Shown: piece after piece, positions 3,597-63,849 of the stretch
Position numbering within the stretch: position 1 is the stretch's first letter
Layout of the letters: the number at the start of each line of letters is the position of its first letter
The notes under the pieces: generated by a model
The model's database searches: none
Told to the model about the DNA's origin: nothing
The model's input: only the letters and a program-made list of their open reading frames with translations
Made by a program: the position numbers and the translations under genes
Assembly: GCA_964016885.1 (NCBI GenBank)
Contig: OZ024749.1
Span: 54,684,001-54,748,000 of the forward strand
Reading direction: 5' to 3'
Length of the DNA: 64,000 nt
DNA from: Eledone cirrhosa
Taxonomy: Eukaryota

Positions 3597-3756
3597 GTGG
3601 TGGGGGCACGGGGCTTACTGGTAAGAGTATTGGACTTACGACCATAATGTCTTGGGTTAGAGTCCTGGACTGGTCTGTACCGGGTTGTATGTTCTGTTCT
3701 TGAGCAAAACATTTCATTTCACATTACTCCAATATACTTAGCTGAAAATGAGTACC
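3597..3756 (+). mobile_element. degenerate tRNA-derived CORE-like SINE (family S2)
   Basis: Degenerate A/B boxes (ggcttactgg, gttagagtcc), then tcttgagcaaaacatttcatttcac...ttagctgaaaatgagtacc; aligns to 34699-34890. Confidence 0.65.
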
Positions 3757-5768: not shown

Positions 5769-5959
5769 GGGCGGTTAATTGGCAGTATCGGGAGAGGGTT
5801 GGACGCCATGCTTTCTAGCATAGTTACGTCCCTTTACAGTCTGAGTTCAAATCCCGCCGAGTTTAACTTTGCCTTTCATCCTTACGGGATCGATAAAATA
5901 AAGTACCAGTAATGTACTGGGTAATTGCTGGCCTTGTGCCAAAAGTAGAAACAATTATT
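5769..5959 (+). mobile_element. full-length SINE S1
   Basis: A box tggcagtatcgg, B box gttcaaatcc, conserved gcctttcatcc...gataaaataaagtaccagt, tail gtagaaacaattatt; highly similar to 25871-26058 and 63573-63762. Confidence 0.92.
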
Positions 5960-22181: not shown

Positions 22182-22206
22182 TTTTGATGATATATATACA
22201 TAAATG

Positions 22207-22277
<71 letters not shown>

Positions 22278-22313
22278 ATGATATTAATAAATGGAAACTA
22301 TATTTATAAAACC

Positions 22314-22376
22314 ATATTTTATTATATATATTTCAAGGGTACCAAAATTTGGGTACGCTCTCATCAGATAAAATAC
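22314..22376 (-). ncRNA. apparently intact type I hammerhead ribozyme
   Basis: Minus: gtattttat-CTGATGA-gagcgtaccc aaattt tggtaccctt-GAAA-T-ATAT-ATA/ataaaatat; 8-9 bp stem I, long stem II, palindromic loop III, AUA site. Confidence 0.8.
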
Positions 22377-22506
22377 AAAATTTGTCTTATAAATGTTGAC
22401 ATACCCAAGAAACCAGACCTTATCGGTTCAGATTCAGTTTATATACATAAATATATTTATATTTGTTTTGCAAGGTTTTTGATATGAAATCATGTGTCGA
22501 AACAAT

Positions 22507-22852
22507 TATTGTTATACTTGGTGAGGGTCATATTGTTGTAATAATATTGCCAGAAATAATAACAGAACACACTCACTGTTTTTGTACAATACAATACAAT
22601 AGGGGGAAACATAATAGTATCACTGATGATGTTGCAGATGTGGTACGAAAGAACTTTGATAGATTATATATATATATTTATATCTGTATTTTCAACCGTT
22701 GGTCAATCAATGATAAACGTTGATTGCCAGATGAATTAACTATGGAGATATAAAAGATGCAGAAGCGAAAACCAACCAAACAGTTAGTGTGTTCTGTTCT
22801 AATTTCTGGCAATATTATTACAACAATATGACCCTCCCCAAGTATAACAATA
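22507..22852 (+). mobile_element. Penelope-like element with 75-bp inverted ends enclosing a hammerhead (family H3)
   Basis: 22507-22581 is the reverse complement of 22778-22852 with few mismatches; HHR inside; third partial end at 22873-22895. Confidence 0.75.
22618..22661 (+). ncRNA. minimal type I hammerhead ribozyme
   Basis: tatca-CTGATGA-t-gttgcagatgtggtac-GAAA-GAACTT-tgata: 5-bp stem I tatca/tgata, imperfect stem II, minimal stem III. Confidence 0.65.
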
Positions 22853-23135
22853 TATATATGTAAGTATATATATATTGTTATACTTGAGGAGGGTAGTTAG
22901 TTCCACAACAGTTAGCAAACCGCTTTCGAGGACACGTGTTTCACATTGTGGATTTTCAATATATACATACATATATATTTTTAGTGTGGTCTATCCGTGG
23001 TGCTAGGGTCCCTACCGTAGATAGAACTGAATGTAATTTGATGGCCAGTCATCCAGTGAAATCCCTAGAAAGATTCCGTGTTCCGCTGAATTAATTCCTT
23101 AGATATGGAGTGAGATATTAGGTATAAATCAATAC

Positions 23136-25671: not shown

Positions 25672-25870
25672 ATGTGTATATGTGTGTCTGTGTATCTCTG
25701 TGTGTGTGTGCGTCTGTTTGTATGTGTGTACGTATGAATATGTGTACATGAAAAAAATTATCAATTAAAGCAAATTTCCACTAGCTTAACATCAACAACA
25801 ATAACAACACAAAAAAAGAAAGGAAGAATTAATTATTAACCAGTCACAAACCCAGATATCATTATTTTTA

Positions 25871-26058
25871 GTGAATTGGCAGTATCGGTAGAGGGTCGGA
25901 CACCATGCTTTTACGCATAGAGTTACGGCCCTTGCCATTCTGAGTTCAAATCCCGCCGAGGTTAACTTTGCCTTTCATCCTTACGGGGTCGATAAAATAA
26001 AGTACCAGTAATGCACTAGGTAATTGCTGGCCTTGTGCCAATAGTAGAAACAATTATT
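25871..26058 (+). mobile_element. near full-length SINE S1
   Basis: A box, B box gttcaaatcc, conserved body and tail. Confidence 0.92.
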
Positions 26059-26292
26059 TTTATAAGTTTTCCATTTATTGTATAGTTTCATAGAAATGTA
26101 TTCTATCTGTATGACATATCAATACTTATATATCCATGTTCCGGCTACAATATAAAAATAAAGTGAGACGAACATTTCAATTAAATATCTAAATGTTTGA
26201 AATAAGTTTATGTTAATAAGTTTATGTTATTTTTTGAATTTATGATATAATCGAGTCGTTTAAATATCTGGTAGAATGTCGTTCAGTGTTTC

Positions 26293-34963: not shown

Positions 34964-35016
34964 AACAATGATAATGATAGCAACAATAACAACAACACCA
35001 ACAATAATAATAATAA

Positions 35017-35200
35017 TGTTTCTACTCTTGGTACAAGGCCAGCAATTATTCCAGTGCATTACTGGTACTTTATTGTATTGACCCCGTAAAGATGAAAAAC
35101 AAAGTTAATCTCGGCGAGATTTGAACTCAGAATAACAAGGGCCGTAACTCTATGCATCAAAGCATGGCTTCCGACCCTCTACCGATACTGCCAATTCACC
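35017..35200 (-). mobile_element. full-length SINE S1
   Basis: Reverse complement of S1 with (aat)n tail. Confidence 0.9.
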
Positions 35201-35210
35201 GTAATAATAA

Positions 35211-35572
35211 TTGTTTCTACTTTAGGCACAAGGCCAGCAATTACCCAGTGTATTACTGGTACTTTATTTTATCGACCCCGTAAGGATGAAAGGCAAAGTC
35301 AACCTCGGTGGGATTTGAACTCAGATCGTAAAGGGACGTAACTATGCTGGAAAGCATGGCGTCCGACCCTCTACCGATACTGTCAATCCACCACCCCAGC
35401 ATGGTGTCCGACCCTCTACTGATACTGCCAATCCACCACCCCAGCATGGTGTCCGACCCACTACTGATACTGCCAATCCACCACCCCAGCATGGTGTCCG
35501 ACCCTCTACTGATACTGCCAATCCACCACCCCAGCATGGTGTCCGACCCTCTACTGATACTGCCAATCCACC
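35211..35572 (-). mobile_element. SINE S1 with five tandem copies of its 45-bp head
   Basis: Unit agcatggtgtccgaccctctactgatactgccaatccaccacccc starts at 35353, 35398, 35443, 35488, 35533. Confidence 0.92.
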
Positions 35573-42167: not shown

Positions 42168-42595
42168 AACGAGTAGGACCCCGACGGCCGCACGGAAACC
42201 CTAGACCCACGGACACCCTACTTCACACTGAAGGACCACAAGTCCGATTACGACCGTAAACCTTCTATCAGGCTTATAAACCCAACGAAGTCCGACATAG
42301 GGAGAATCAGCAAATAAATCCTAGACCGCGTTATACCAGCTTGAGCTCAGCCGTCGGGGTCCTACTCGTTCCTATTACCCACTCTACTACCCTAAGTATT
42401 GAGTACTTTGGTGCGTTATGGTCCACCTGGTTCCTTACCACATTTCCTTCGTTATATATATATATATATGTCGAGATGGCCAGAGCTCAGCCGTCGGGGT
42501 CCTTATTCTTTTCCTATTACCCACTCTACTACCCTAAATATTGAGTACTCTGGTGCGTTATAGTCCACCTGGTATCTTACCAAACCCTCTTCGTT
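42163..42595 (+). mobile_element. GC-rich (TA)n-embedded element (family H5) with 26-bp perfect inverted repeat and tandem 3' duplicate
   Basis: 42163-42188 is the reverse complement of 42350-42375; 42343-42453 is repeated at 42484-42595; inverted relative at 45951-46050. Confidence 0.75.
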
Positions 42596-63152: not shown

Positions 63153-63849
63153 AAAGGCTATGGATTGGCAGTATTCGGTAGAGCGCCGTGCAACATGCTT
63201 TGCGGCATATAGTTACGTCTTTTTACGCTCTGAGTTCAAATCCAGCCGAGGTTAGCTTTGCCTTTCATCCTTAGAGAGTTGATAAAATAAAGTACCAGTA
63301 ATGTACTGGGGTTGATTTAATAAACTTGCCCCTTTCTTTCAAATCGGTGGCCTTGTTCCTCAATCAGAAACCATTATTACAGAAACTTTTAAAATATAGT
63401 ACCAGTAATGTACTGGGTAATTGGTGGCCTTGTTCCTCAATCAGAAACCATTATTACAGAAACTGTTTATTACAGAAACTGTTTATTATTTGGGGCAAGT
63501 TTATTAAATCAACCCAAGTACATTACTGGTACTTTATTTTATCGACTCTCTAAGGATGAAAGGCAAAGCTAAAGGGCGGTGGATTGGCAGTATCGGTAGA
63601 GGGTCGGACGCCACGCTTTGACGCACAGTTACGGCCCTTGCCATTCTGAGTTCAAATCCTGCCGAGGTTAACTTTGCCTTTCATCTTACGGGGTCGATAA
63701 AATAAAGTACCAGTAATACACTGGGTAATTGTTGGCTTTGTGCCAAAAGTAGAAACAATTATTACAGAAACTGTTAAAATATAGTACCAGTAATACACTG
63801 GGTGATTGCTGGCCTTGTGCCTCAATCAGGAACCATTATTACTGAAACT
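63153..63849 (+). mobile_element. SINE S1 composite: two full copies, duplicated tails and an inverted internal segment
   Basis: Copies at ~63153-63386 and 63573-63762; tail duplicates at ~63391-63465 and ~63776-63849; inverted segment 63492-63572. Confidence 0.9.

What the first reader, a model, noticed from the sequence alone, without database searches (positions are those of the whole stretch)
22314..22376. Apparently cleavage-competent hammerhead hidden in AT-rich DNA
All core nucleotides are present (CUGAUGA, GAAA, AUA site), with an 8-bp Watson-Crick stem I (tattttat/ataaaata) plus a G-U pair, a stem II with gag/ctt and gtacc/ggtac, and stem III formed by the TA repeat itself (AU-AUAU-AU). 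The microsatellite motif supplies part of the ribozyme. If a minus-strand transcript crosses here it could be cut between 22323 and 22322. Caveat: G10.1-U11.1 wobble and a weak stem III may need dimerisation.
Basis: partly seen in the sequence, partly recalled or inferred. Interest (0 to 1): 0.75.

Follow-up and report, generated by a model that had tools for sequence, protein, structure and literature searches.

The report
Hammerhead in a Penelope retroelement stub
The self-cutting RNA motif is really there, but it is the standard hammerhead from the end repeat of a very common jumping gene (a Hydra-type Penelope element), here in a short leftover copy that is predicted not to cut on its own.

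Summary
The motif is real. A type I hammerhead with an intact core lies at 22314-22376 (minus), site 22323/22322; 0 of 100 shuffles gave one. It is not a unique hidden ribozyme. It sits in a 169-bp stub (22272-22440) of a high-copy repeat. Longer copies run into a 1.3-kb UTR and an RT + GIY-YIG ORF with Hydra-clade motifs, and one locus is pLTR-ORF-pLTR with this hammerhead at both ends. Hammerheads in Hydra-clade Penelope elements are published. Stem II covaries across subfamilies. The AUAUAUAU of stem III is the element's own palindrome, not the microsatellite. Monomer stem III has a predicted probability of 0.001, so cutting likely needs a dimer or protein, and this solo copy is probably inert. 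Stubs share two 3' ends in (TA)n and a sharp 5' edge at an initiator-like motif, so they may be uncut copies of the start of the element's RNA. The scan has noted this kind of element, and that reading, on other DNA. Verdict: new member of a known kind, low interest.

The parts
22314..22376 (-). Type I hammerhead motif: stem I 22375-22368 with 22322-22315; CUGAUGA 22367-22361; stem II 22360-22335; GAAA 22334-22331; palindrome AUAUAUAU 22331-22324; A17 22323
   Evidence: sequence; descriptor and shuffles; covariation
22302..22394 (-). Distal extension of stem I (22394-22384 with 22312-22302, 11 bp with one G-U) beyond an internal loop; this copy lacks 4 nt of the 3' strand found in most copies
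   Evidence: folds; alignment A1; deletion in 1 of 65 copies caught by the pattern, and also in L021
22272..22440 (-). Solo pLTR stub of a Hydra-type Penelope-like element (family A); 5' edge at -73 from C3, 3' end at the 'short' end site joined to (TA)n
   Evidence: about 95% identity to nearest copies
22190..22275 (.). (TA)n microsatellite, the insertion target at the element's 3' end; not part of the ribozyme
   Evidence: 3' ends
22446..22581 (-). Inverted arm of a second, different high-copy repeat (family B), ending at its long 3' end
22585..22853 (+). Direct arm of family B, with a second hammerhead-like motif at 22618-22661 (C3 = 22623, CUU site, stem II damaged in this copy)

Best explanation
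The motif is the hammerhead in the end repeat (pLTR) of a high-copy Penelope-like retrotransposon with Hydra-clade motifs, and the window holds a 169-bp solo stub of that repeat inserted in a TA microsatellite, which is predicted not to cut as a single copy. Shown: full elements are pLTR(hammerhead)-ORF(RT, GIY-YIG)-1.3 kb UTR-pLTR(hammerhead); stubs end at two fixed sites downstream of the ribozyme, joined to (TA)n; and they keep both sides of the cleavage site. Inferred: the element's endonuclease nicks (TA)n; its RT primes inside the RNA at one of the two sites and copies through an uncut (or religated) hammerhead. Inferred: the 8-nt palindrome lets two hammerheads pair into a double hammerhead, or one fold with protein help, in full or tandem transcripts. 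Inferred, about 50%: the stubs' sharp 5' edge is the element's transcription start, so stubs are copies of the first 170-270 nt of the RNA.
For: Copies: 2177 first-look candidates, 40 scored, 50 matches at 88-100%; 63 exact matches to a 52-nt core, control 0. Linkage: UTR and ORF upstream of the same pLTR in L061, L062, L064, L065, L128; direct pLTRs at both ends of the ORF in L129 (C3 at 3406 and 7403); inverted 5' arms in L131 and L063. Protein: RLRWRA, KSDKT, GLYRDD, CNCRDESNC, YIGAT, CHLC..E..N..CKH; 10 homologues of about 700-870 aa at E 4e-55 to 1.5e-18, one with a weak RVT_1 match. These motifs match the Hydra definition and alignment (PMC8557442 section 11 and supplement). Structure: 92.5% of cells paired; 7 of 8 stem II pairs change on both sides; slid controls 42-50%; loop 3 palindromic in 19 of 19 rows. 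Energy: active monomer -4.7 vs open -8.2; dimer -22.0 vs -16.4 kcal/mol for two open monomers. Ends: of 47 copies, 23 meet (TA)n 50-69 nt and 15 meet it 130-159 nt past the site. 5' edge at -71 to -80 in 13 of 23 loci, none at -81 to -145. Published parallels: PLE hammerheads inactive as monomers and weak as dimers (PMC4209133); two internal RT start sites, a protein-assisted hammerhead and an uncut template (PMC11167929).
Against: No cleavage or RNA data. No tree was built, so clade placement rests on motifs. The element is about 3.8-4.0 kb, longer than the usual <3 kb for Hydra, and has RWR for RWK. Pfam found nothing in three ORF pieces. Every ORF copy fetched was broken or partial. The active dimer (-22.0) is still above the co-fold minimum (-26.4). 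Proximal stem I shows one-sided changes only, and relatedness inflates the shuffle control. Priming here falls at TA microhomology, whereas in Anolis it was at a non-homologous site.
Confidence: 0.9

Rival explanations
1. The stub is a member of a short non-autonomous family (SINE- or retrozyme-like) that is transcribed and amplified in its own right, using the Penelope enzymes.
For: Sharp 5' edge and two fixed 3' ends give units of about 170 and 270 nt; short copies outnumber long ones among core hits (18 of 23 loci); PLE-derived retrozymes are proposed in bioRxiv 10.64898/2026.07.22.740005.
Against: No head-to-tail arrays of the short unit in the 30 loci; second copies are mostly inverted. 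The same edge recurs in several diverged subfamilies that each also have long versions, and the stub is colinear with the autonomous pLTR.
Confidence: 0.12
2. The 5' edge is a stall or microhomology hotspot (a TAT next to a pyrimidine tract) for RT copying from the 3' pLTR of full transcripts, not a transcription start.
For: Many edges fall at TATC, which can pair with (TA)n; a U-rich tract lies just upstream; family B edges cluster at an A-rich tract.
Against: Several stubs begin exactly at ACTATC with flanks that do not supply AC (L012, L018, L023); none of the 23 core-hit loci ends at -81 to -145; TTCACT or TCATT is kept across 7 long references while the tract upstream varies. Penelope of D. 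virilis starts transcription in the pLTR at an initiator (PMC2377424 passages).
Confidence: 0.4
3. One reading: a locus-specific, monomer-active ribozyme partly built from the microsatellite, which cuts a host read-through transcript.
For: Core intact; stems I and II form in the isolated 63-mer.
Against: The palindrome is element-encoded; stem III P 0.001; the fold is lost with flanks; the copy is about 5% diverged with a rare deletion; no Pfam-detectable host exon in 64 of 97 screened window ORFs.
Confidence: 0.04

Closest known systems
Hydra-clade Penelope-like elements with canonical hammerheads (Craig et al. 2021, PMC8557442; passages, section 11, supplement part 2 and search passages read)
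   Same: C-terminal GIY-YIG, DKT, CxCX5C linker, CxxC and CxH around E and N, GLYRDD, (TA)n target, inverted 5' arms, type I hammerhead near the 3' end. File S2 lists Hydra hammerheads with G-U at the base of stem II (Penelope-13_HM, Penelope-17_HM) and many with A17.
   Different: A different family from Hydra-1_Obim (its hammerhead row differs); about 3.8-4 kb with a 1.3-kb UTR; RWR for RWK; loop 3 is an 8-nt all-AU palindrome; stem II is 8 bp with an internal mismatch.
Minimal and palindromic-helix-III type I hammerheads in metazoan PLE pLTRs (Cervera and De la Pena 2014, PMC4209133; parts 1-2 of 4 read)
   Same: In both pLTRs, mostly found as solo copies, long helix II, palindromic 15.2-16.2, predicted dimer.
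   Different: G10.1-C11.1 is not kept (G-U in 93 and A-U in 23 of 142 hits); helix I is longer (8 bp plus an 11-bp distal stem).
Poseidon PAc of Anolis (Frangieh et al. 2024, PMC11167929; parts 1-2 of 4 read)
   Same: Two RT start sites downstream of the hammerhead define an optional tail; inserted copies retain an uncut hammerhead.
   Different: Other clade; the tail here is about 90 nt; both ends lie upstream of the ATG and at TA microhomology.
Animal non-LTR retrozymes (PMC7229834 passages; bioRxiv 10.64898/2026.07.22.740005 part 1 of 5)
   Same: Short non-coding unit with a type I hammerhead and weak helix III.
   Different: No head-to-tail arrays seen; the sequence is the pLTR of a coding element.

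Membership tests
Type I hammerhead ribozyme | Conserved core CUGANGA / GAAA / UH | tested here: met
   invariant in 19 of 19 rows except N7
Type I hammerhead ribozyme | Helices I and II, supported by covariation | tested here: met
   stem II 7 of 8 pairs with two-sided change; proximal stem I 99% paired, one-sided changes only
Type I hammerhead ribozyme | Stable helix III as a monomer | tested here: not met
   P = 0.001; dimer register is possible through the 8-nt palindrome
Type I hammerhead ribozyme | Mg2+-dependent self-cleavage | not testable with these tools
   needs an in vitro assay
PLE pLTR hammerheads | Located in both flanking repeats of an RT/GIY-YIG ORF | tested here: met
   L129
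PLE pLTR hammerheads | Palindromic 15.2-16.2 / loop 3 | tested here: met
   19 of 19 rows, counting G-U
PLE pLTR hammerheads | G10.1-C11.1 pair (common in PMC4209133, not universal) | tested here: not met
   1 of 142 hits; also absent in several Hydra rows of File S2
Hydra-clade PLE | DKT motif, CxCX5C linker, CxxC and CxH around E and N | tested here: met
   (L061, L062, L128-L131, L133; the full CxxC-E-N-CxH pattern in L130)
Hydra-clade PLE | RWK motif | tested here: inconclusive
   RWR in 4 loci; homologues P0001 and P0002 have RWK
Hydra-clade PLE | Insertion into (TA)n | tested here: met
   44 of 47 copies have (TA)4 or more within 230 nt downstream, clustered at two sites
Hydra-clade PLE | Generally under 3 kb (typical, not defining) | tested here: not met
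   3997 nt between the two hammerheads of L129, including a roughly 190-bp inserted repeat
Hydra-clade PLE | RT phylogeny; absence of the CCHH motif | not tested
   no reference sequences held as files; no tree or alignment to other clades was made
Non-LTR retrozyme | Head-to-tail tandem units each with a hammerhead, no coding partner | tested here: not met

The most novel reading that the evidence does not exclude
The short stubs are strong-stop-like cDNAs. RT primes at one of two sites downstream of the hammerhead in the 5' pLTR and runs off the capped 5' end of the RNA. Thousands of stubs would then map the element's transcription start (the A of TTCACT, 80 nt before C3) and show that the ribozyme is copied uncut, in a Hydra-clade family whose dimer interface is an all-AU 8-mer.
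Probability: 0.5. Interest if true: 0.4.

Novelty: new member of a known kind. Interest (0 to 1): 0.17.

Why it matters
As a single locus it matters little: it is one of at least hundreds, probably thousands, of decayed stubs. The family is a usable test case for the open question of what Penelope hammerheads do: stem II is kept by compensatory change across subfamilies, yet insertions carry the site uncut. The fixed 5' edge gives a precise, testable prediction for the transcription start.

Tried and rejected
Rfam: whole-window scan gave 350 matches, and the 150 shown were all microsatellite-driven miRNA families; the local scan gave no hammerhead. Pfam on three ORF pieces: nothing; on 4 homologues: one sub-threshold RVT_1. 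PDB sequence search: only chance BTF3 matches. Sequencing runs: no RNA holder listed; three contig sets of one sample, kind unknown, pile on the two repeats and say nothing on expression or ends. Lunse et al. 2017 on PLE hammerhead dimers was not held; I saw only its summary in PMC6765202 (passages). I first read the ORF as Neptune or Nematis type and dropped that after the Hydra motifs matched. An extra 5' G (cap copy) at stub edges was looked for: where present it comes from the inverted arm, so there is no cap evidence. RLE and RTE ORFs near some copies are unrelated neighbours. Paper searches: hammerhead + Penelope (45 papers), hammerhead ribozyme + octopus (5), Penelope + octopus + retrotransposon (17), Penelope + pLTR + solo + transcription start (1). 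No listed title or abstract names this family or the stub/start-site reading; most were seen as listings only. Supplements of the bioRxiv retrozyme preprint were not seen and could bear on this.

Full report
Observation. C3 is at 22367, G12 at 22334 and A17 at 22323, so the bond is 22323/22322. A strict descriptor found this single hit in the window and none in 100 shuffles. Rfam lists no hammerhead family here.

It is a repeat. The window lies in a 3.0-Gb animal genome (cephalopod-like is my guess from the repeat landscape, not tested). The 221 bases around the motif gave 2177 first-look candidates, of which 40 were scored, yielding 50 matches. A 52-nt core of the commonest form has 63 exact copies, control 0. 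The window copy spans 22272-22440, is about 95% identical to its nearest relatives and lacks 4 nt in the 3' strand of stem I.

The parent element. Walking upstream from longer copies led through a 1.3-kb AT-rich UTR into an ORF. Twelve 10-kb stretches were mapped. ORF-UTR-pLTR order is seen in L061, L062, L064, L065 and L128. L129 has the hammerhead-bearing repeat in direct orientation at both ends of the ORF (C3 at 3406 and 7403; ATG near 3649). L131 and L063 have inverted 5' arms. All ORF copies fetched were broken or partial. The protein carries RLRWRA, KSDKT, GLYRDD, CNCRDESNC, YIGAT and CHLC..E..N..CKH and has 10 homologues of about 700-870 aa. These are the marks given for the Hydra clade of Penelope-like elements, which target (TA)n and carry hammerheads (PMC8557442 section 11; supplement). 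No tree was built. The family differs from Hydra-1_Obim in its hammerhead and is longer than usual.

The ribozyme. I aligned 19 copies picked by hand from the 142 hits to span the subfamilies with an AT-N4-AT loop. 92.5% of cells pair, 7 of 8 stem II pairs change on both sides, and slid controls give 42-50%. Relatedness inflates the shuffle control, and proximal stem I changes on one side only. Loop 3 is palindromic in 19 of 19 (AUAUAUAU, AUAUGUAU, AUGCGCAU), and other families in the loci use other palindromes. So the UA run is the element's dimer palindrome, not the microsatellite, which begins about 48 nt further on. The G-U at the base of stem II is family-typical (93 of 142) and appears in published Hydra rows. 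Monomer stem III has P = 0.001; the active monomer is 3.5 kcal/mol above the open form; the double hammerhead is 5.6 kcal/mol better than two open monomers but still above the co-fold minimum. With flanks, P(stem I) of the window copy is 0.02 or less. In print, a single S. mansoni PLE hammerhead did not cut and dimers cut weakly (PMC4209133), and the Anolis one cut only with protein and was not needed for insertion (PMC11167929).

How the stub likely arose. Of 47 copies from the loci meet (TA)n 50-69 nt and 15 meet it 130-159 nt past the cleavage site; 9 end elsewhere. Both sites are at TA microhomology in the full element. This matches the two-start-site 'tail' of PLEs and means the template was uncut or religated (inference). 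For 5' edges I used loci found with the core alone: 23 of 29 non-self loci were measurable, one copy each, taken by hand. Thirteen begin at -71 to -80, none at -81 to -145, 5 run further and 5 are shorter; a uniform null never gave such a cluster in 20000 draws. The outer limit is the A of TTCACT or TCATT, kept in 7 long references; that this resembles an initiator is recalled, and D. virilis Penelope has an initiator in its pLTR (PMC2377424 passages). I put the transcription-start reading at about even odds against a stall or microhomology hotspot.

Context. No Pfam domain was found in 64 of 97 screened window ORFs, so no host gene is evident, though an intron cannot be excluded. A second repeat abuts the stub, with head-to-head arms and its own hammerhead-like motif.

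Earlier scan notes. Nothing matched by sequence or place. Word searches show the same kind of element in this and other genomes, one of which pointed me to the Hydra clade, and the start-site reading in other genomes, which I had reached before that look-up. These are unchecked notes, not support.

Verdict. Observation confirmed; interpretation partly supported. New member of a known kind; interest 0.17.

Noticed in passing
window 22618-22661 (+): Second hammerhead-like motif (bulged U, 6-bp stem II in other copies, AGAACU loop, CUU site) in a different high-copy repeat (1678 first-look candidates). Stem II has two broken pairs here. No linked ORF was established.
   Followed up: partly
window 22446-22853: Family B is inserted head-to-head: the inverted arm ends at the long 3' end and the direct arm at the short end.
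   Followed up: partly
window 42189-42359 (+): 57-codon fragment of a Hydra-type RT region (TLKDHK..PSIRLINPTKSDIG; tblastn E 7e-11).
   Followed up: partly
L003, L028, L048, L053, L095, L113, L156, L174 and others: At least eight further type I hammerhead families occur in the fetched flanks, most with palindromic loop 3 and N-U at the base of stem II; some have 7-8-nt non-palindromic loops (CCACTGG, CATTAGTG).
   Followed up: no
window 5777-5959, 25863-26063, 35001-35390, 63159-63840: Copies of a roughly 190-bp SINE-like repeat that also inserts repeatedly into the AT-rich UTR and pLTR of the Penelope element (L129, L033, L045, L049).
   Followed up: no
L066 2111-5536 (+): Open 1141-codon non-LTR ORF with RT and a C-terminal restriction-like endonuclease (R4/Dong-like by recalled motifs), inserted next to a family A fragment.
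   Followed up: no
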